NCBI GenBank assembly: GCA_964600575.1
Contig: CAZRJH010000005.1
Coordinates: 8,040 to 72,039, forward strand
Direction of reading: 5' to 3'
DNA: 64,000 nt
DNA from: an uncultured Gammaproteobacteria bacterium
GTDB taxonomy: Bacteria > Patescibacteriota > Microgenomatia > UBA8517
Below are positions 868 to 38,543 of the stretch, piece after piece (positions within the stretch are counted from its first letter, which is position 1; each line of letters opens with the position of its first letter). The notes beneath the pieces were generated by a model that saw nothing but the letters and a program-made list of their open reading frames with translations, was not told the origin of the DNA and ran no database searches. Made by a program: the position numbers and the translations under genes.

Positions 868-1434
868 ATGGAAAAAATAATCGATAGAACACCGGAAAGA
901 AATTTGGAAACTTTTAACAAATGGCTTAAGAACTTATCGGTGGAGGGAAAGGTGGAAGAGATAGATGCGGCCATCGTCCGTAATGTTTTAGAAATGGCCG
1001 GGGCAAATTTTGAGATAGGGGAGGTAGAACATAAATCGCTTGGTAAATATTCCAATAAAGGTAAAAGAGAGGGGTTGGACGCGGTTTGGGGAAAAGATAA
1101 AGTTGATACTTTTAAAACCTGGATAATCGGCGAATACATTCCTTACATCGAAAAATTTGCAGGGAGGGAACTCCATACACTTTATGATAGGGCCACCGAC
1201 ACTTACGACGATATTAAGCATTCGGGAATGATGCAGTTTTTTGGAGAGTTAACGGCTTTTGCCGCGGGTCAAATATCTTTTGAAAAATATCAGAGAATCA
1301 CCGAAAACCGATATAAAAAAGGAAAGACTTGGCAGTACGGAAATCGTGAAGAAATATATGAACCAAGCAAAAATGCAGCCTTTCCGGTAGACTTTCCCGT
1401 GAAGGCTATAGATAGGTTAAATGCCTCATTTTAG
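868..1434 (+). CDS. hypothetical protein
   Basis: 188-aa ORF with no recognisable motif; compact spacing after the upstream gene. Confidence 0.4.
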   Translation: MEKIIDRTPERNLETFNKWLKNLSVEGKVEEIDAAIVRNVLEMAGANFEIGEVEHKSLGKYSNKGKREGLDAVWGKDKVDTFKTWIIGEYIPYIEKFAGRELHTLYDRATDTYDDIKHSGMMQFFGELTAFAAGQISFEKYQRITENRYKKGKTWQYGNREEIYEPSKNAAFPVDFPVKAIDRLNASF

Positions 1435-6417: not shown

Positions 6418-7575
6418 ATGCGGAATTATAGGAGTTTTATTCTATTAAGTCAAATATTGTTTGCGTGCGTGATTTTAGTGTTCGGGAACTGGGCGGTTGT
6501 TACTTATGAGATACCAAAGGTTATTGTTTTTCAATGGGTCGTTCGTATTCTTGCCTTGATTTTGGCCTACTCATTTTTTAGAAAACCGCGTAAATGGAGA
6601 GTTGACCCTTTGCTTGCAAAAATGATTCTGACTTTTGTCGCGGTTGTGTTTGTAAGTGCTTTTTTTGGAGTCAATATTGCCAAAAGTTTTATTGGTAATT
6701 TTTACAGAGGCGACGGAATAGTAACTTTCTTGAGCTTGGTCGGCTTTTCTTTTATAGTTAGTTACTTTTGGAAAGAAGAATTTAATATCTACTTTGCCGA
6801 GGTCCTGTTTTGGGTCTCAACGCTTTTGGCGGGATTTTCATTGTTTTCTCCTTTTGTACCGCAACTTTCAAATATAAGTGCGGCAGGTTTCGGTAATTCC
6901 GTATTTTTAGCCGGATTTTTAGTCACAGCTTTACCTTTCTCTTTTTATTATGTGCGGGAAAATATCAAAAGGAGATTTATCTTTGGATTTATTGTTCAGG
7001 TAATTTCCTTGTTCTTTTTAAATGCAACCGCCTCTGTAATAGTACTTTTTGTATTCGTATTTTTGATACTAATGCGCTATGCAAAATCAAAAAGAAAAAA
7101 TCTTTTTGGCGCACTACTATTGCTATCGGGTTTGGCCATCGGACTTTTGTGGCTAAGAGATTACAGTATTCAGAGTTCAACTTCGTTAATAGCCGAAGGC
7201 AGGGCCAGAATATTTATAAACGGTTTACAGGGTTTTGCCCAAAGCTCGCTTTTGGGATACGGGTGGGCCAACTTTGACGCAGCCTTTCAAAAAGGAACAT
7301 GGCCTATGCGTTTAAATAACGATGTTTATGTAGACAAAGCGCATTCGGAGTTTCTGGAGGTCCTGGTTGCTACCGGTGCGATAGGTTTTTTGGCGTACCT
7401 TGCCTTTATTTACAACCTATATCGCAAACTTAAAACGGGTCTCAAGACCGATTGGGGCCATACTTTGTTTGCAGTATTTGTTATATATCTTCTACACTCT
7501 CAAACAAATGTAACCTCGATTACGGAGCAAATACTCTTCTGGTTTGTGGTCGGGGTTTCGCTACGAGAAATTTAG
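6418..7575 (+). CDS. O-antigen ligase/polymerase-like (Wzy_C family) membrane protein
   Basis: Multi-TM protein; motif DKAHSEFLEVLVATGAIGFLAYLAF matches the O-antigen ligase family. Confidence 0.6.
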   Translation: MRNYRSFILLSQILFACVILVFGNWAVVTYEIPKVIVFQWVVRILALILAYSFFRKPRKWRVDPLLAKMILTFVAVVFVSAFFGVNIAKSFIGNFYRGDGIVTFLSLVGFSFIVSYFWKEEFNIYFAEVLFWVSTLLAGFSLFSPFVPQLSNISAAGFGNSVFLAGFLVTALPFSFYYVRENIKRRFIFGFIVQVISLFFLNATASVIVLFVFVFLILMRYAKSKRKNLFGALLLLSGLAIGLLWLRDYSIQSSTSLIAEGRARIFINGLQGFAQSSLLGYGWANFDAAFQKGTWPMRLNNDVYVDKAHSEFLEVLVATGAIGFLAYLAFIYNLYRKLKTGLKTDWGHTLFAVFVIYLLHSQTNVTSITEQILFWFVVGVSLREI

Positions 7576-7605: not shown

Positions 7606-8250
7606 TTACACTTTTGCTATCTGAAGAAAATCTAACTCAACCGGAGTTTCGCGGCCGAAGATGGAAACCAAAACTTTAACCTTACCTTTTTCTTCGTCCA
7701 TTTCGTGGATTGTTCCCAAAAAGTCAGAGAAAGGACCGTCTGTGATCTTGATTGCTTCTCCAACGGAGAATTTTGTTTTGAATCTGGGAGCTGGGGAGCT
7801 GACGAATTTTTGAATGTTGGCAACTTCGGTTTCGGACAATGGTGTGGGCTTGTTTCCTGCACCGACGAAGCCTGTGATTCCTGCTGTTGTGCGTACGGCA
7901 AGCCATGTGGGATCGTCCAAAATCATTTTAACCAAAAGATAACCCGGGAAGATTTTTTCTTTAACTGTGGCTTTTTTGCCTCCGCGGATAATCACTCTGT
8001 CCTGGGTGGGAACCAACATCTCGAATACCTTGCCTTGAAGATTCATAGTTTCTATTCTTTGTCTAAGGGTCTCCATAACTCTAATTTCGTGCCCGGATGA
8101 GGTGTGGACTACATACCACTTAGCATTTGGATCGGTTGTTTCGGATACGACAATATGACCGGGGATTTTCTTTTTCCCGGTTCCTCTTTCGTTAACTTCG
8201 ATTATGTCAGTTTTTTCGACTGGCGTGTCTGTTTTTTGTGAGTCGTCCAT
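7606..8250 (-). CDS. nusG: transcription termination/antitermination factor NusG (N-terminally extended)
   Basis: KWYVVHT...GHE, KOW motif, C-terminal ...KVLVSIFGRETPVELDF... Confidence 0.9.
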   Translation of the reverse strand: MDDSQKTDTPVEKTDIIEVNERGTGKKKIPGHIVVSETTDPNAKWYVVHTSSGHEIRVMETLRQRIETMNLQGKVFEMLVPTQDRVIIRGGKKATVKEKIFPGYLLVKMILDDPTWLAVRTTAGITGFVGAGNKPTPLSETEVANIQKFVSSPAPRFKTKFSVGEAIKITDGPFSDFLGTIHEMDEEKGKVKVLVSIFGRETPVELDFLQIAKV

Positions 8251-8474
8251 TATCTTGCAACTACTAAGGATAAGAGTCTGGTGAAGCCGTAGTCAAGACC
8301 TCCAACATAAAGTCCGAGTACCGCCGATACCAGTAATACTATCAAAGTAAGTTTGATTACGTCATTCCTACTTGGCCAAGTAACTTTTGTAAGTTCAGTT
8401 CTAACTTCGTTAATAAAAGAAGTTACTTGTTTCATCTCGAAGAGAATTGTATCAAATAAACTATGAGCGTACAA
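8250..8474 (-). CDS. secE: preprotein translocase subunit SecE
   Basis: Single TM with a SecE-like C-terminus (VTWPSRNDVIKLTLIVLLVSAVLG); its stop overlaps the nusG start. Confidence 0.75.
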   Translation of the reverse strand: MYAHSLFDTILFEMKQVTSFINEVRTELTKVTWPSRNDVIKLTLIVLLVSAVLGLYVGGLDYGFTRLLSLVVAR

Positions 8475-8500: not shown

Positions 8501-9193
8501 TTGTTGATGAAAAATAGATTACCAGATTTTGAATATGAAACCAGGTTGTGGCAAAAGGGTTTAAAAATAATAGGTGGGGTAGACGAAGTCGGGAGAGGGG
8601 CGTTTGCGGGCCCTGTTGTTTGCGGGTGTGTGGTTTACGATTGCGAACGGGTTTTAAGAGACTGTGGGTTTCAAAGCGGGGTGTTAATAAACGACTCCAA
8701 AATGCTGAACCATAGGCAGCGATCTGCCGCTTCTAAATGGATAAAAGAAAATTCATTAAGTTGGGGCATCGGTATATCAAGTGTGTCCGAGATAAATAAC
8801 TACGGCATAGTAGGTGCTACAAATAGAGCATTTAGGCGGGCTATTATCCAAACATCAAAAAACATTGGCATCGTCTTTGATCACCTTTTGACCGACGCTT
8901 TTTTGATTCCCAACACAAAATATATTCCAAAGTCCAAACAAACGCCGATTATAAAAGGGGATAGTCTATCTGTAACCATTGCTTCCGCCTCCATCGTAGC
9001 CAAAGTTGAACGAGACCTGATTATGACCGAACTAGGGAATGCACCTGAATTTTCAGTATATTTTTGGCACAAAAACAAAGGTTACGGAACAAAGTCCCAT
9101 AGGCAAGCTATTAAAACACACGGAAAGTCCCTTCTACACAGAAAAAAGTTTGTGGATACCTGGGAGCTAAAGTCACAAAAAAGCAGAGCTTAA
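8501..9193 (+). CDS. rnhB: ribonuclease HII
   Basis: GVDEVGRGAFAGPVV and DSKML motifs. Confidence 0.85.
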   Translation: MLMKNRLPDFEYETRLWQKGLKIIGGVDEVGRGAFAGPVVCGCVVYDCERVLRDCGFQSGVLINDSKMLNHRQRSAASKWIKENSLSWGIGISSVSEINNYGIVGATNRAFRRAIIQTSKNIGIVFDHLLTDAFLIPNTKYIPKSKQTPIIKGDSLSVTIASASIVAKVERDLIMTELGNAPEFSVYFWHKNKGYGTKSHRQAIKTHGKSLLHRKKFVDTWELKSQKSRA

Positions 9194-9393
9194 TAATTTC
9201 GCTTTTTCTCCAGTTCTATCTGGTGTGCGATTCTGTATTTTTGCTCTTTTCTTTTTTCGGACGGTTTTTTGTAGTGTTCGCGGTCTCTAAATTCCTGCAA
9301 AACACCTTCCATAATAGTCTTTTTTCGGAATCTGGCGATGAGTTTGTCGTCGCTTTCTCCTTTTTTCTTTTTAATTATGAACATAAATTTCAC
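9190..9393 (-). CDS. rpsU: 30S ribosomal protein S21 (true start probably the second Met, MFIIKKKK)
   Basis: ...LIARFRKKTIMEGVLQEFRDREHYKKPSEKRK... aligns to S21. Confidence 0.8.
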   Translation of the reverse strand: MKFMFIIKKKKGESDDKLIARFRKKTIMEGVLQEFRDREHYKKPSEKRKEQKYRIAHQIELEKKRNY

Positions 9394-32439: not shown

Positions 32440-32505
32440 ATACCACTATTATCCAAAATCGAAAAGGTTAAGTTAAGGCCAAGGCGAAGGGTATTTAAAT
32501 CACTC

Positions 32506-33711
32506 TTAATTTTTTAAATTTATATTTACCAATTTAATCATATCCTTAATATGATTTGCGTTGTCCAGATTTATTTTTTCGTAAAAAATTTTTTTGGAAA
32601 AAAATCTGTCTCTTGATCTTGTTTCACTTTGATAACTTGCAAAGTGTCTTTGATAACTGTGGAATGCATGCCTAACTATTAATAAAAAAGTTCCGTGATC
32701 AAGCCCAACTTCTTTCAGCATCGACTGGTTCGCAATTTGCACCGTACTGTTTCCTAGATTGATTTGTATCCCCTTTATAACAGTTTCAAGTTTTCGGGTT
32801 GCATTGTCGCGGGCGTCGTTTGCAACTGTTTGAAGTGTTATTGCTGTTGTAGGAATGCCGGACTCTTTGCCTAGTTGTGAATTTACCATATATACAAGGT
32901 GTTTGGAGACTTCATACTCAAGTTTTGTGGGATCGAGCGGTTCTCTCATTTGGGTGTGGTGAGTGACTAGCTCATATTCTTCGGGTTTGCCTTTATAGTA
33001 CTCTAGAATTTTTTTTCCGCGTTCAACAAGTTGCCTGCCCAAGTCTTCAAAATCGGGCGGATTACCCTTCGTGTTAACGCTGTCCACTAAGGCCAAACTC
33101 ATTTCCTTATGATTTGGACCAAATTGCAATGACAGGAGTTCAAAAATTGCATCATTGTCCTCGTTGAGGGAGCCGTCCGGATTAAACAAAAAACTTTCGA
33201 TGTCGCGGGTGTAGTTGTATATCATTGCTCCCAGTTCGGCATAATTCACAATAGGATATCTAAATCTTTTATTGACCTCTTTGCCCAGTGGTGTTTTGTC
33301 CCATTTGGATTTTGTATTTGTTTTATGTTGTTTTGCAAACTCTTCCGTAACACGGTCAGCAAGGCCCGCCCAATAGGAGAATTCTTGGGCTCCTATTTCC
33401 GCGGCTGCAGAAGAAAGTACGCGATCAATAAGTATGGATCCGTGTGTAGCGGCATTGATCGAAGCAAAACTGACACGTTTATCGAGATACTTAAGCCCAT
33501 CAACATTGCCCATGCTTAGTTCTTGTGCAGCGTGGAAATATTCTTCTTGGGTAACAGGTAAAATTTTGGTTGAAATTTGAACTCTGGCTTTAACTTTACT
33601 TTCTATGAACTGCTTTTTTTCTTTGCCGTCCATTTCCCATAAAAACATATTTTCTCCATGTCCAACTTGTCGTTCCGCATCCATCTCAATTTTTGCTTTA
33701 TCGTATACCAA
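32506..33711 (-). CDS. hypothetical protein
   Basis: 401-aa ORF, no motif recognised. Confidence 0.45.
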   Translation of the reverse strand: MVYDKAKIEMDAERQVGHGENMFLWEMDGKEKKQFIESKVKARVQISTKILPVTQEEYFHAAQELSMGNVDGLKYLDKRVSFASINAATHGSILIDRVLSSAAAEIGAQEFSYWAGLADRVTEEFAKQHKTNTKSKWDKTPLGKEVNKRFRYPIVNYAELGAMIYNYTRDIESFLFNPDGSLNEDNDAIFELLSLQFGPNHKEMSLALVDSVNTKGNPPDFEDLGRQLVERGKKILEYYKGKPEEYELVTHHTQMREPLDPTKLEYEVSKHLVYMVNSQLGKESGIPTTAITLQTVANDARDNATRKLETVIKGIQINLGNSTVQIANQSMLKEVGLDHGTFLLIVRHAFHSYQRHFASYQSETRSRDRFFSKKIFYEKINLDNANHIKDMIKLVNINLKN

Positions 33712-33758
33712 CGAAAAGGCGGGATTGCTACCAACAAAGTATGAATAAAAAGCACCTC

Positions 33759-34133
33759 TTACAAACGAATCAAACGGCCTAAGCTGTGGTTCGCGTTGAA
33801 AATAGTTTCGTAAAATTCAGTCAGATCTTCCTTGAATGATTTATCAAGAAAAACGGGGAGAGGCGTTTTCAATTTGTTTCTCTCCTCTTCTTCAATCGCG
33901 GCTTTTCTTTCTTTGTTTACATAGCCCGAACCCGGGGTAAGCTCCAATACATCCTCTTTCATCTGGTTAGCTAATGCAGTAAGTGCGTTTACAGTATATT
34001 TGGGGCCAAAAACGGCGGCAACACGTCCTGATTTTACCTCTTGCTCCATCTCTAAAGTTATATGGTGGATGTCTTGCGAAAAGGTTTCCTTTGTTGCCCC
34101 TGTGGTTTGTTGTGTGTTTTTAAACTCTGTCAT
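33759..34133 (-). CDS. hypothetical protein
   Basis: 124-aa ORF. Confidence 0.4.
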   Translation of the reverse strand: MTEFKNTQQTTGATKETFSQDIHHITLEMEQEVKSGRVAAVFGPKYTVNALTALANQMKEDVLELTPGSGYVNKERKAAIEEEERNKLKTPLPVFLDKSFKEDLTEFYETIFNANHSLGRLIRL

Positions 34134-34142
34134 TGTAGATGT

Positions 34143-34162
34143 CTGCAGGCCAAGAGGGAATC
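34143..34162. repeat. 20-bp exact direct repeat of the tRNA-Trp 3-prime end (att-like)
   Basis: tgcaggccaagagggaatcg occurs at 34143..34162 and again at 34188..34207; the second copy is the 3-prime end of the tRNA. Confidence 0.6.
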
Positions 34163-34189
34163 GTCAAACTATGTTTCTATTCCTGTTTT

Positions 34190-34260
34190 GCAGGCCAAGA
34201 GGGAATCGAACCCCCAATAGCGGTTTTGGAGACCGCTGTTATACCATTTAACTATTGGCC
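34190..34260 (-). tRNA. tRNA-Trp (anticodon CCA)
   Basis: Cloverleaf: acceptor AGGCCAA/TTGGCCT, D-arm GTTAAATGGTATAAC, anticodon loop CTCCAAA, T-arm GGGGTTCGATTCCCTC. Confidence 0.85.
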
Positions 34261-34335
34261 TTTGAATTAAGACCGCAAAACACGGCCCTCCTTGCCTTGT
34301 AGTATATCAATTTTGACCCACTTGGAGTATCCCGT

Positions 34336-37382: not shown

Positions 37383-38381
37383 TCAGTAGACAAAAGAAGC
37401 ATCTCCAAAGCTAAAAAATCTATATTTTTCGTCGACTGCTGTTTTGTAAACTTTATTAAGTGTCTCCATCCCTGTAAACGCACCAACCAAAGCTAAGAGA
37501 GTGGATTTTGGCAAGTGAAAGTTGGTAATTAGGGCGTCGATAAATTTAAATTTGTAACCCGGGTAGATATAAATATTTGTCTCTCCCGATTTTTTAGGGA
37601 AAGATTCCAATACCCGTACCGTAGTTGTTCCTACTGCAATTATTCTTTTGCCTTGTTTTTTGGCAAGATTGAGCCTATCAAAAGTGCCGTCGTCCACCTC
37701 GTATTTTTCTGAGTGTATTTTGTGCTTGGTTATATCGGTTTCTTTTACAGGGGCAAAAGTTCCAAGCCCTACATGCAAAGTTACATATTCAACTTGAACA
37801 CCCTTGGATTTTATTTTTTCCAGAAGCTCTTTTGTAAAATGCAAACCTGCTGTTGGTGCTGCAACCGAGCCTTTGAATTTTGCATAAACTGTTTGATACT
37901 TCTTTCTAATTTCTGACTCCTTTTCTGAACTTTTAATATACGGGGGGAGGGGTGTAACCCCTTTTGCGTCCATTGTTGCAAAGATGTTGTTTCTAGTTTC
38001 GTGCGTTTTTAATATTGCAGTTTGGTCCTCGTGCCCCGTGCATTCAAATTCTAAGTTTTCGAATTTTATCTTTTGGCCTACTTTTACACCGGGCTTTGTG
38101 AGAACTTTCCAGACTCCCGTTTCTGTTTCTTCCAAAAGTAGCACTTCAATCTTTCCGCCTGTATCTTTTACACCAAAAAATCTGGCGGGGAAGACTTTGG
38201 TTTGGTTTAAGACTAAAACATCGTTGGGAGTTAGGTAATCAACAATTTTGCGGAAAATTTTATGTTCTATTTCTCCCGTATTTTTGTTTACAACCATAAG
38301 GCGACTTCTGTCACGGGGGTTTGCAGGGGAGTTGGCTACAAGTTCCTTGGGAAGTTGATAATCGAAAAGGGAGATATCCAT
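37383..38381 (-). CDS. queA: S-adenosylmethionine:tRNA ribosyltransferase-isomerase
   Basis: MDISLFDYQLPKELVANSPANPRDRSRLMV...GTTTVRVLES. The ORF-track N-terminal extension to 38537 overlaps tRNA-Tyr and is rejected. Confidence 0.9.
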   Translation of the reverse strand: MDISLFDYQLPKELVANSPANPRDRSRLMVVNKNTGEIEHKIFRKIVDYLTPNDVLVLNQTKVFPARFFGVKDTGGKIEVLLLEETETGVWKVLTKPGVKVGQKIKFENLEFECTGHEDQTAILKTHETRNNIFATMDAKGVTPLPPYIKSSEKESEIRKKYQTVYAKFKGSVAAPTAGLHFTKELLEKIKSKGVQVEYVTLHVGLGTFAPVKETDITKHKIHSEKYEVDDGTFDRLNLAKKQGKRIIAVGTTTVRVLESFPKKSGETNIYIYPGYKFKFIDALITNFHLPKSTLLALVGAFTGMETLNKVYKTAVDEKYRFFSFGDASFVY

Positions 38382-38458
38382 ACTATTGTGTGCCTGGGAC
38401 AGGTCTAAAGATCCCCGCAGGGGAATTCGTATGCGTATGCATCGAAGACTGTTCCGTG

Positions 38459-38543
38459 TGCTGAGGACAGGATTCGAACCTATGTAGCCCTTTCGGACGC
38501 GAGATTTACAGTCTCGTGCGTTTGACCGCTCCGCCACCTCAGC
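38459..38543 (-). tRNA. tRNA-Tyr (anticodon GUA, long variable arm)
   Basis: GCTGAGG...CGAGACTGTAAATCTCG...GGTTCGAATCC...CCTCAGC, 85 nt. Confidence 0.8.

What the first reader, a model, noticed from the sequence alone, without database searches (positions are those of the whole stretch)
34143..34207. Duplicated 3-prime end of tRNA-Trp (att-like scar)
A 20-bp segment tgcaggccaagagggaatcg, covering the last 18 nt of tRNA-Trp plus 2 nt, is repeated exactly 25 bp downstream of the tRNA. Duplication of a tRNA 3-prime end is the footprint left by tRNA-targeting integrases. The spacing is too short for a resident element, which suggests a scar of past integration/excision or a tandem attachment site. 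The flanking genes are all orphans.
Basis: seen in the sequence. Interest (0 to 1): 0.55.

Follow-up and report, generated by a model that had tools for sequence, protein, structure and literature searches.

The report
Insertion scar beside tRNA-Trp gene
A 20-base copy of the tail of a tRNA gene sits 25 bases behind that gene; it marks a spot where DNA was once inserted, similar small insertions recur next to tRNA genes in related uncultured bacteria, and no working mobile element is present here.

Summary
TGCAGGCCAAGAGGGAATCG occurs exactly twice (34144-34163 and 34189-34208). The second copy is the 3' end of tRNA-Trp on the minus strand, running from T-loop C56 to 2 nt past the discriminator. 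The arrangement is neither chance nor a single-assembly artefact.

Comparative data support an insertion origin. A sister species with an identical tRNA-Trp has three alleles: an empty site, the same repeat bracketing an unrelated 55-57-nt insert, and an 855-bp one-gene insert followed by a decayed copy. In that species tRNA-Thr(TGT), tRNA-Tyr and tRNA-Thr(GGT) also carry 45-64-nt inserts bracketed by their own C56-to-end block. In 304 tRNA loci such copies occur downstream in 13 and upstream in none.

Two other candidate-phyla-radiation (CPR)-like contigs have a large serine recombinase abutting tRNA-Trp and reading antisense through it. This is the layout of the Dehalococcoides ssrA islands, which have 20-bp repeats and insert in mid T-loop.

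The window has no recombinase, no element and no significant third copy. The best reading is a gene-less att-type relic or mini-insert. A target-site-duplication mechanism is not excluded. The two "orphan" ORFs downstream are one frameshifted gene. Interest is moderate.

The parts
34190..34261 (-). tRNA-Trp (anticodon CCA), intact; CCA is not encoded
   Evidence: ARAGORN; Rfam RF00005, 67.9 bits. Sequence is identical to the tRNA-Trp of the sister species in L163/L173.
34189..34208 (-). Proximal direct repeat (copy A). This is the working 3' end of the tRNA, from T-loop C56 through discriminator G73, plus CA.
34164..34188 (-). 25-nt insert between the repeats (AAACAGGAATAGAAACATAGTTTGA). It is unique in the window. 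It contains AACAGGAATAG (34177-34187), a weak partial inverted match to the T-stem/T-loop part of the repeat.
   Evidence: Unique at up to 3 mismatches. The inverted match is not significant on its own (p=0.32). The 3' 20 nt resemble the tRNA-Tyr insert of the sister species only weakly (p=0.037, uncorrected).
34144..34163 (-). Distal direct repeat (copy B). This is a displaced, non-functional copy of the tRNA 3' end and ends 10 nt before the ATG of the next gene.
   Evidence: The same 20-mer forms the distal copy in the sister-species allele V3 (L163, L178, L179).
32506..34133 (-). Lineage-specific segment directly after copy B. It holds one gene of about 530 aa, of unknown function, split by a frameshift into 124-aa and 401-aa ORFs. 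The gene lacks the promoter it has in relatives.
   Evidence: Homologs are 483-549 aa. Their N-terminus aligns with the 124-aa ORF. tblastn shows a frame change between residues ~84 and ~113. In relatives the gene lies elsewhere with a TAGAAT box 6-7 nt before the ATG. The segment is absent between tRNA-Trp and the conserved 159/160-aa anchor gene in the sister species.
32476..32494 (-). Candidate third, decayed copy (ATACCCTTCGCCTTGGCCT) at the far edge of the lineage-specific segment. This is tentative.
   Evidence: It lies in the 66-nt gap between the 401-aa ORF and the conserved anchor gene. Its score is in the top 0.6-1.2% of all 66-nt windows but is not significant window-wide.

Best explanation
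The two 20-mers are the direct repeats left by site-specific insertion of DNA into the T-loop-to-3'-end segment of tRNA-Trp. Copy A completes the working tRNA. Copy B is a displaced copy of the same segment, of the attR type. Only 25 bp of inserted DNA lie between them, so the locus is a gene-less relic or miniature non-autonomous insert, not a resident element.

The likely machinery is inferred, not shown. It is a recombinase supplied in trans or long lost, of the kind seen in related genomes: a large serine recombinase whose gene abuts tRNA-Trp and reads antisense through it, as in the Dehalococcoides ssrA islands.

The segment after copy B holds the frameshifted 530-aa gene and may end in a decayed third copy. 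It may be an older insertion pushed outward by the newest event.

Shown: the repeat and its geometry, recurrence at other tRNAs, empty versus occupied alleles in a sister species, and a recombinase next to tRNA-Trp in two related loci. Inferred: that the window's own pair arose the same way, and which enzyme did it.
For: (1) The repeat is exact and non-random and is reproduced in three assemblies.

(2) The sister species has an identical tRNA-Trp, with flanking genes ~69% identical at the nucleotide level. It has three alleles right after the tRNA:
- Empty: L174, L175, L177.
- tRNA + 55-57-nt insert + the same 20-mer + the empty-site flank: L179, with L163 and L178 carrying the same insert. 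Flanks are 98.8-99.6% identical to the empty allele.
- tRNA + 855-bp insert carrying one gene + a decayed copy that scores in the top 0.4% of windows: L173.

(3) The same block, C56 to one base past the discriminator (19 nt), brackets 45-64-nt inserts behind tRNA-Thr(TGT), tRNA-Tyr and tRNA-Thr(GGT) in that species. The tRNA-Thr(GGT) site is empty in L173. The same pattern occurs behind tRNA-Thr(GGT) in L143.

(4) In a survey of 304 distinct tRNA loci, 13 had a copy within 200 nt downstream (score >=20) and none had one upstream.

(5) L147 and L141 carry a large serine recombinase (Resolvase + Recombinase + Zn_ribbon_recom) directly 3' of tRNA-Trp on the opposite strand. Its ORF runs through the whole tRNA.

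(6) The published analogue shows 20-bp repeats of the ssrA 3' end, insertion in mid T-loop, tandem islands, many islands without an integration module, and an integrase gene overlapping the repeat (PMC3146451). Displaced tRNA fragments as island end-markers are general knowledge (PMC4383910 abstract; PMC9897764).

(7) Gene content between tRNA-Trp and bS21-RNase HII-secE varies: 24.8 kb here versus 3.2 kb in L160.
Against: - No recombinase, phage or plasmid gene was found in the 64-kb window.
- No empty-site allele of this species was available.
- No significant third copy was found.
- The 20-mer, both inserts and the tRNA core gave no hits in viral contigs.
- A 25-bp remnant requires either near-total deletion of an element or a mini-insert with no published precedent.
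- The tRNA-Trp and tRNA-Tyr inserts of the sister species are homologous to each other (p<=0.0005), yet each is flanked by its own tRNA's end. That is simpler under a target-site-duplication model than under an element-borne att core.
- The window's own 25-nt insert shows only weak similarity to the other inserts.
Confidence: 0.55

Rival explanations
1. Target-site duplication. A transposase- or Cas1/casposase-like integrase makes staggered cuts before C56 and about one base after the discriminator of a tRNA gene and inserts a short unit. Gap repair then duplicates the 19-20 bp. Under this model the inserts are miniature non-autonomous elements or excision footprints.
For: The duplicated block has the same coordinates (C56 to N73+1) at four different tRNA species, and in each case both copies match the local tRNA. 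The inserts behind tRNA-Trp and tRNA-Tyr in one genome are homologous (p<=0.0005), which suggests the duplicated part comes from the target. The tRNA-Trp empty and occupied alleles differ by a clean insertion plus a 19-nt duplication. Casposons give 14-35-bp TSDs, include tRNA-Leu gene targets and form tandem arrays (PMC4779613).
Against: The inserts have no terminal inverted repeats. No Cas1, DDE or other transposase was found in the window (Pfam). No extra copies of any insert occur elsewhere in 1.2 Mb of fetched DNA. A 19-bp stagger tied to tRNA structure has no described enzyme. The only recombinase actually found beside tRNA-Trp is a serine integrase.
Confidence: 0.2
2. Local replication or repair error at a structured tRNA gene, such as template switching or fold-back synthesis. 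No mobile element is involved. The 3' end is copied again after a short stretch of filler.
For: Three inserts of the sister species contain an imperfect inverted copy of their own tRNA 56-74 block (p=0.001-0.03; Fisher p=6e-5 over all six inserts; cognate match is best in three). One insert contains a direct 15-nt copy of its own tRNA. Patchworks like this are typical of template switching at hairpins.
Against: The tRNA-Trp and tRNA-Tyr inserts share sequence that does not derive from either tRNA. The 57-nt tRNA-Trp insert is 100% identical in strains whose flanks are ~91% identical. The inverted copies are much more diverged than the exact direct copy, so the insert arrived pre-formed. The 855-bp one-gene insert at the same site cannot be filler.
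Confidence: 0.1
3. Functional cis element. Copy B, with or without the spacer, would be kept by selection. Possible roles are a tRNA minihelix-like RNA processing signal or decoy in the tRNA-mRNA co-transcript, or part of a promoter or leader for the downstream gene.
For: Copy B is 20/20 identical in two species whose other non-coding DNA no longer aligns. Copy B sits 10 nt before a start codon here. In L143 and L175 it sits just before the rpmG promoter. The 5' part of the spacer can pair with B.
Against: Fold energies are not better than shuffles (z from +0.7 to -1.7). No promoter or terminator consensus was found. Spacer length and sequence are not conserved between species. Alleles without the copy exist in healthy populations. 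More distant relatives lack it (L160, L166). The downstream gene here is frameshifted.
Confidence: 0.08
4. Chance repeat or assembly artefact.
For: None beyond the shortness of the repeat.
Against: None of 100 shuffles gave two matches. The arrangement is identical in three assemblies. The same geometry is found in many other loci. The repeat (20 nt) is shorter than usual assembly k-mers, and the 25-nt spacer leaves no room for a collapsed element.
Confidence: 0.01

Closest known systems
Dehalococcoides ssrA-specific genomic islands (ssrA-GIs) with the large serine recombinase DsiB (McMurdie et al. 2011, PMC3146451)
   Same: [quoted passage not shown] In both, repeats accumulate downstream in a variable region, and many repeat-bounded units lack any integration genes. 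In related CPR-like loci (L147, L141) a large serine recombinase lies next to the tRNA on the opposite strand with its reading frame overlapping the tRNA, as dsiB overlaps ssrA.
   Different: The target here is tRNA-Trp, and other tRNAs in the sister species, rather than tmRNA. The repeats bracket only 25 bp. No recombinase is present in the window. Relatedness of the CPR recombinase to DsiB was not tested.
Classical tDNA islands and prophages of tyrosine integrases (Williams 2002 sublocation classes, from my own knowledge; Islander database, PMC4383910)
   Same: In both, a regenerated tRNA plus a displaced 3' fragment mark the ends of inserted DNA. In both, the identity block runs from a loop to the 3' end of the gene (abstract).
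   Different: There is no island, no tyrosine integrase, and a gene-less 25-bp interval.
Cis-mobilizable elements (CIMEs) and accretion at att sites of ICESt1/ICESt3-type elements (cited within PMC3146451; otherwise from my own knowledge)
   Same: Both are att-flanked DNA without recombination or transfer genes. Tandem arrays form by repeated use of the tRNA-proximal site.
   Different: CIMEs are kilobases long and carry genes. Units of 25-64 bp have not been described to my knowledge.
Casposons (Cas1-solo transposons) inserted in tRNA genes (PMC4779613)
   Same: Both show long duplications (14-35 bp for casposons) that include the 3' part of a tRNA gene, repeated use of one site, and remnants.
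   Different: Casposons have terminal inverted repeats and encode Cas1 and PolB. Neither feature is present here.
E. coli tyrT locus, where a 178-bp unit beginning with the last ~19 bp of tRNA-Tyr is repeated about 3 times downstream (Egan & Landy 1978; Rossi et al. 1981; from my own knowledge, not checked here)
   Same: The tRNA 3' end is repeated downstream of the gene. The same type was seen in L084 and L093, as a tRNA-Tyr + 190-bp tandem unit.
   Different: At tyrT the whole unit, tRNA end plus trailer, is tandemly repeated. Here only the 20-mer is repeated, and the sequences after A and after B are unrelated.
Folded single-strand attachment sites, such as integron attC and the CTX-phi attP hairpin used by XerCD (from my own knowledge)
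   Same: In both, an imperfect inverted copy of the target site lies next to a direct copy. This was seen in three inserts of the sister species.
   Different: Those systems target attI or dif rather than tRNA genes. The window's own insert shows no significant inverted copy. No IntI was found, and no Xer-type recombinase was examined.

Membership tests
t(m)RNA-gene islands of large serine recombinases (Dehalococcoides ssrA-GI type) | Direct repeat equal to the 3' end of the target RNA gene, starting in the T-loop, about 20 bp long | tested here: met
   The 20-mer runs from C56 to 2 nt past the discriminator. Compare PMC3146451.
t(m)RNA-gene islands of large serine recombinases (Dehalococcoides ssrA-GI type) | Serine recombinase gene adjacent to attL, antisense, overlapping the repeat | tested here: not met
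   None found in the window (Pfam; tblastn). It is present only in other CPR-like loci, L147 and L141.
t(m)RNA-gene islands of large serine recombinases (Dehalococcoides ssrA-GI type) | An island with cargo genes between the repeats | tested here: not met
   Only 25 bp lie between A and B. The 1.65-kb segment after B, with its possible decayed third copy, is only a candidate.
t(m)RNA-gene islands of large serine recombinases (Dehalococcoides ssrA-GI type) | Occupied versus empty sites among related strains | tested here: inconclusive
   Shown for the sister species at tRNA-Trp and tRNA-Thr(GGT). No second strain of the window's own species was available; L121 and L122 carry the same allele.
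Tyrosine-integrase tDNA islands or prophages | Tyrosine integrase (Phage_integrase domain) at one end of the inserted DNA | tested here: not met
   No such Pfam hit among the 60 window ORFs scanned in 6 Pfam calls.
Tyrosine-integrase tDNA islands or prophages | A second copy of the att core at the far end of a kb-scale element | tested here: not met
   No further copy at up to 3 mismatches. The Smith-Waterman scan found nothing above shuffle level.
Casposon or other TSD-generating transposon | Terminal inverted repeats inside the duplication | tested here: not met
   TIR test p=0.24-1.0 for all six inserts.
Casposon or other TSD-generating transposon | Cas1, PolB or a transposase encoded by the element or genome | tested here: not met
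   None in the window (Pfam calls as above). The rest of the genome was not available.
Casposon or other TSD-generating transposon | Duplication derived from the target rather than carried by the element | tested here: inconclusive
   Homologous inserts are flanked by different tRNA ends, which favours target origin. An element family with swapped cores is not excluded.
Tandem repeat of tRNA end plus trailer (E. coli tyrT type) | The sequence after copy A is repeated after copy B | tested here: not met
   Spacer versus post-B flank gives p=0.41 for the window and p=0.99 for L143.
Structured RNA element (terminator, processing signal) | A fold more stable than shuffled sequence, or a match to an Rfam family | tested here: not met
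   z-scores +0.73, +0.41 and -1.03 for the window constructs. Only tRNAs were found by Rfam. No terminator was found.

The most novel reading that the evidence does not exclude
The window's 25-bp insert would be the smallest member of an undescribed class of miniature, gene-less insertion units in CPR-like (Patescibacteria-like) bacteria. These units home to the T-loop-to-3'-end block of tRNA genes (C56 to N73+1). They are bracketed by a 19-20-bp copy of that block. They often carry an imperfect inverted copy of it, giving hairpin potential. They are still being gained or lost among strains whose flanks are ~99% identical. They would be moved in trans by a recombinase whose own gene spans the attachment site, or by an unknown staggered-cut integrase.
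Probability: 0.3. Interest if true: 0.7.

Novelty: new variant of a known kind. Interest (0 to 1): 0.45.

Why it matters
Displaced tRNA 3' fragments are the standard markers of integrated islands, so a scar of this kind is expected biology. The unusual part is the comparative picture. In this lineage the same 19-20-bp tRNA block is duplicated around inserts of only 25-64 bp, at four different tRNAs, with presence/absence polymorphism and no recombinase nearby.

If these units are mobile rather than decayed islands, they would be an integrase-world counterpart of MITEs. They would also offer a way into how streamlined, little-studied genomes acquire and lose DNA next to tRNA genes.

Practically, the result flags tRNA-Trp-secE and the neighbouring tRNA cluster as a variable hot spot. 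It also corrects the annotation of two "orphan" ORFs to one frameshifted gene.

Tried and rejected
- **Genome-contig scan with the 18-mer.** It returned only single-copy tRNA ends of unrelated phyla, none close to this tRNA. The scan was wasted.
- **Viral-contig scans.** I searched the 20-mer, both spacers, a shared spacer motif and the tRNA core. All gave 0 hits.
- **Third copy near secE (8.5 kb), bS21 or the GC-rich stretch.** None was found.
- **Tandem duplication of a longer unit.** Rejected, because the spacer and the post-B flank are unrelated.
- **Insert as a decayed second tRNA gene.** Only the L175 insert resembles its tRNA (p=0.002). The others do not.
- **RNA structure, promoter or terminator.** Nothing significant.
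- **Retroviral-type primer-binding site on the + strand.** Rejected by inspection. The copy lacks one C of CCA, so it derives from the gene and not the mature tRNA.
- **Terminal inverted repeats.** None.
- **Extra copies of any insert in 1.2 Mb of fetched DNA.** None.
- **Antisense translation of the inserts, looking for a recombinase C-terminus.** It gave only a 6-residue resemblance (A-I/V-H-N-F-F in two inserts), too short to use.
- **Viral relatives of the CPR serine recombinase.** One contig (L180) was found, but it is truncated before the gene's 3' end and is uninformative.
- **124-aa ORF searched alone.** It found no homolog. Its homology appeared only through the 401-aa ORF.

Full report
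**1. The observation**

The 20-mer TGCAGGCCAAGAGGGAATCG occurs at 34144-34163 and 34189-34208 and nowhere else in the window, even with 3 mismatches. None of 100 dinucleotide-preserving shuffles gave two matches.

tRNA-Trp(CCA) lies on the minus strand at 34190-34261 (ARAGORN) or 34191-34261 (Rfam, 67.9 bits). In tRNA orientation the locus reads: tRNA...GGGGGTT|CGATTCCCTCTTGGCCTGCA|AAACAGGAATAGAAACATAGTTTGA|CGATTCCCTCTTGGCCTGCA|GACATCTACA|ATG.

The repeated block starts at C56 in the T-loop. It covers the 3' strands of the T and acceptor stems and the discriminator, and it ends 2 nt later.

Two Logan assemblies of other sequencing runs (L121, L122) have the identical sequence. It is therefore not an artefact of one assembly.

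**2. Surroundings in the window**

On the tRNA's strand the gene order is:
- Peptidase M50, tRNA-Thr(TGT), tRNA-Tyr, QueA, a 117-aa ORF;
- PGA_cap on the opposite strand, tRNA-Thr(GGT), L33;
- a 233-aa ORF on the opposite strand, then a 222-aa ORF (the protein I call "Y"), then tRNA-Trp and the repeat;
- ORFs of 124 aa and 401 aa;
- about 23 kb of mixed genes, then bS21, RNase HII on the opposite strand, secE, nusG, L11, L1, L10 and L12.

No integrase, recombinase, transposase, Cas1 or phage gene was found in six Pfam scans of 60 ORFs spanning about 1.6-63.7 kb of the window. No promoter-like or terminator-like site touches the repeat. The organism looks like a member of the candidate phyla radiation (CPR, Patescibacteria). 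This is inferred from gene content and from the loci that share its tRNA; it was not formally tested.

**3. The "orphans"**

The 124-aa ORF alone has no homolog among 5.8 billion protein clusters. The 401-aa ORF has homologs of 483-549 aa, and their first 84 residues align with the 124-aa ORF (48% identity). tblastn shows a change of frame between residues ~84 and ~113.

The two ORFs are therefore one frameshifted gene. All three assemblies share the frameshift. In relatives this gene sits in other contexts with a TAGAAT box 6-7 nt before its ATG. Here copy B takes the place of that promoter.

The 222-aa ORF upstream of the tRNA has six homologs at 42-55% identity. These gave access to related genomes.

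**4. The sister species**

L163, L173-L179 carry a Y protein 55% identical to the window's. Their coding DNA is ~69% identical and non-coding DNA no longer aligns, yet the tRNA-Trp is 100% identical. Three alleles follow that tRNA.

- **V1** (L174, L175, L177): tRNA...CCTGC|AGAATGCC..., with no duplicate.
- **V3** (L163, L178, L179): tRNA...CCTGC + a 57-nt insert + CGATTCCCTCTTGGCCTGC + AGAATGCC... In L179 this is V1 plus a clean insertion with a 19-nt duplication. Flanks are 99.6% (upstream) and 98.8% (downstream) identical to V1. L178 has the identical insert although its flanks are only ~91-95% identical, and a different sequence follows copy B. This explains why contig L163 stops exactly at the end of copy B.
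- **V2** (L173): tRNA + an 855-bp insert carrying one polysaccharide-deacetylase gene on the opposite strand + a decayed copy (GTTCGAAGTTCGCTTACTAATGCCTGC, top 0.4% of windows), then the V1-type flank.

In a more distant relative, one contig (L161) ends exactly at the tRNA-Trp 3' end while its sister contigs continue. The 3' end of tRNA-Trp is thus a site where DNA comes and goes.

**5. The same geometry at other tRNAs**

In L173, tRNA-Thr(TGT) is followed by a 45-nt insert and CGAATCCTTTCGTCGACTC (1 mismatch). tRNA-Tyr is followed by a 64-nt insert and an exact CGAATCCTGTCCTCAGCAC. In L175 and L176, tRNA-Thr(GGT) is followed by a 64-nt insert and an exact CAATTCCCACCCTAGGCTC, whereas L173 has the empty site.

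In an unrelated CPR-like contig (L143), tRNA-Thr(GGT) is followed by a 50-nt insert and an exact copy just before the rpmG promoter. L145 has an array of three further, progressively decayed copies behind tRNA-Trp, and L135 has one decayed copy.

In every case the block starts at C56 (T54 in L145) and ends one or two bases after the discriminator.

I surveyed 304 distinct tRNA loci in all fetched DNA. A copy of the last 22 nt within 200 nt scored >=20 downstream in 13 loci and upstream in none. No copy lay more than 300 nt away, within the ~4.6 kb available on average. None of the 120 loci that share the 18-mer in other phyla has a second copy.

**6. What the inserts look like**

- They have no terminal inverted repeats.
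- The sequence after copy A is unrelated to that after copy B, so this is not a tandem duplication of a longer unit.
- The tRNA-Trp (V3) and tRNA-Tyr inserts of the sister species are clearly homologous to each other (score 35 versus 13.9 in shuffles, p<=0.0005), although they are bracketed by different tRNA ends.
- Three sister-species inserts carry, near their 5' part, an imperfect inverted copy of their own 56-74 block (p=0.03, 0.001, 0.008). L143 also matches (p=0.04), but not specifically to its own tRNA. Over all six inserts Fisher p=6e-5.
- One insert holds a direct 15-nt copy of its own tRNA.
- The window's 25/26-nt insert is the shortest and shows only weak, individually non-significant resemblances.
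- RNA folds of insert plus copy B are no better than shuffles.

**7. A candidate machinery in relatives**

I examined 50 ORFs lying within 5 kb downstream of tRNA-Trp in the CPR-like loci. Two are large serine recombinases (Resolvase, Recombinase and Zn_ribbon_recom domains).

In L147 and L141 this gene lies directly 3' of tRNA-Trp on the opposite strand. Its reading frame continues antisense through the entire tRNA and stops upstream of it.

This is the arrangement described for the Dehalococcoides ssrA islands. There the serine integrase DsiB lies next to attL with its 3' end overlapping ssrA. [quoted passage not shown] Islands stand in tandem, and 15 islands lack an integration module and were proposed to be cis-mobilizable (PMC3146451).

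The far ends of the L147 and L141 elements are not in the fetched DNA. No relative of this recombinase is in the window or the sister-species loci. The one viral relative found (L180) is truncated.

**8. Interpretation**

The best-supported reading is that the window's pair of 20-mers brackets an insertion made by site-specific recombination into the T-loop-to-3'-end block of tRNA-Trp. Copy A completes the tRNA, and copy B is the displaced copy.

The flank after copy B (AGACATC...) begins like the flank of the empty allele in the sister species (AGAATGC...). This fits B plus flank being the older arrangement.

The next 1.65 kb holds the frameshifted gene, which has lost its promoter. This segment is specific to the window's lineage. 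The sister species has other genes between tRNA-Trp and the conserved 159/160-aa anchor gene. The gap at its far edge contains ATACCCTTCGCCTTGGCCT (32476-32494), which scores in the top 0.6-1.2% of windows. This may be an older, decayed repeat, which would make the locus a small tandem array, but the evidence is weak.

Two routes could give a 25-bp interval: repeated deletion of an island, or mini-units that are inserted as such. In the deletion route the tRNA on one side and the neighbouring gene on the other set the limits, and residence time is long at small sizes. The clean 76-bp V1/V3 difference between nearly identical strains, and the recurring 45-64-nt size with shared motifs, argue for mini-units in the sister species.

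**9. What remains open**

Homologous inserts are flanked by different tRNA ends, so the duplicated block may come from the target. That would mean a staggered cut about 19 bp apart, followed by fill-in, rather than an attP-borne core. Casposons show that long duplications including tRNA-gene ends exist (14-35 bp, PMC4779613). However, the inserts have no terminal inverted repeats and no Cas1 is present.

A purely mutational origin by template switching would explain the inverted copies. It would not explain the shared non-tRNA sequence, the identical insert in diverged strains, or the 855-bp gene insert.

A functional role for copy B is suggested only by its perfect conservation across two species. 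It is contradicted by alleles that lack it and by the absence of conserved structure.

**10. Verdict**

- The window's own instance is an ordinary relic with nothing active in it.
- The wider pattern found while checking it is the more interesting result: gene-less mini-inserts with a fixed C56-to-end duplication at several tRNAs, polymorphic among strains. It deserves a systematic scan.

Noticed in passing
window 32506-34133 (-): The 124-aa and 401-aa 'orphan' ORFs are one gene of about 530 aa, conserved in related CPR-like genomes. It is split by a frameshift near 33780-33800 (a T-run region) in all three assemblies. In relatives the gene has a TAGAAT box 6-7 nt before the ATG, which suggests a leaderless mRNA.
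   Followed up: yes
window 8250-34190: tRNA-Trp and secE-nusG-rplKAJL are usually adjacent in bacteria (my own knowledge). Here they are 25.7 kb apart on the same strand. Relative L160 has 4.3 kb between them. bS21 (about 9196-9357, -), RNase HII (8501-9193, +) and secE (8250-8435, -) form the conserved far boundary. Part of the interval (Ddl, peptidase C39 and three ORFs) is syntenic with the sister species.
   Followed up: partly
L173 6483-6830; L175 5-160; L176 252-410: In the sister species, tRNA-Thr(TGT), tRNA-Tyr and tRNA-Thr(GGT) each carry a 45-64-nt insert followed by a copy of their own last 19 nt. The tRNA-Thr(GGT) site is empty in L173 and occupied in L175 and L176.
   Followed up: yes
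L147 (Ga0210057_1000836) and L141 (Ga0209211_10097066), directly 3' of tRNA-Trp: A large serine recombinase gene lies on the opposite strand, and its open reading frame runs antisense through the whole tRNA-Trp gene. This suggests the attachment site lies inside the recombinase gene, as for DsiB at ssrA or SSV-type integrases.
   Followed up: partly
L145 (Ga0180437_10000271) 6455-6716: tRNA-Trp is followed by three further partial copies of its 3' end (6546-6567, 6660-6681, 6700-6716), each preceded by a GGCAGAC/GGCGGGC motif. No genes lie between them. Convergent tRNA-Tyr and tRNA-Thr follow.
   Followed up: partly
L143 (ERZ869936 NODE-3714), tRNA-Thr(GGT) at 1098-1171 (-): An exact 20-nt copy of the tRNA 3' end lies 49 nt downstream, immediately before the rpmG promoter. 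The insert shares the 8-mer ACTCGATA, at the same offset, with the sister-species tRNA-Trp insert.
   Followed up: partly
L173 11107-11961: An 855-bp insertion lies right after tRNA-Trp. It carries a single polysaccharide-deacetylase gene on the opposite strand and is bounded distally by a decayed copy of the tRNA 3' end. It looks like a one-gene cassette without a recombinase.
   Followed up: partly
L084 and L093 (proteobacterial loci), downstream of tRNA-Tyr: A unit of about 190 bp that begins with the last 18 nt of tRNA-Tyr (including CCA) is repeated in tandem. This resembles the E. coli tyrT 178-bp repeats and is a different kind of 3'-end duplication from the one studied here.
   Followed up: no
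L161 (Ga0366832_1001192, 105 kb): The contig ends exactly at the last base of tRNA-Trp, while contigs of the same population (L160, L162) continue. This suggests strain variation starts at that base.
   Followed up: no
L174 vs L173: Upstream of tRNA-Trp the two strains are 100% identical over 1684 nt. Downstream they are 94.7% identical. The tRNA therefore marks a recombination boundary in the population.
   Followed up: no
window 37383-38537 (-): The mechanical QueA ORF (384 aa) overlaps tRNA-Tyr. The real start is most likely the ATG at 38381 (MDISLFDYQL...), which gives 332 aa.
   Followed up: no
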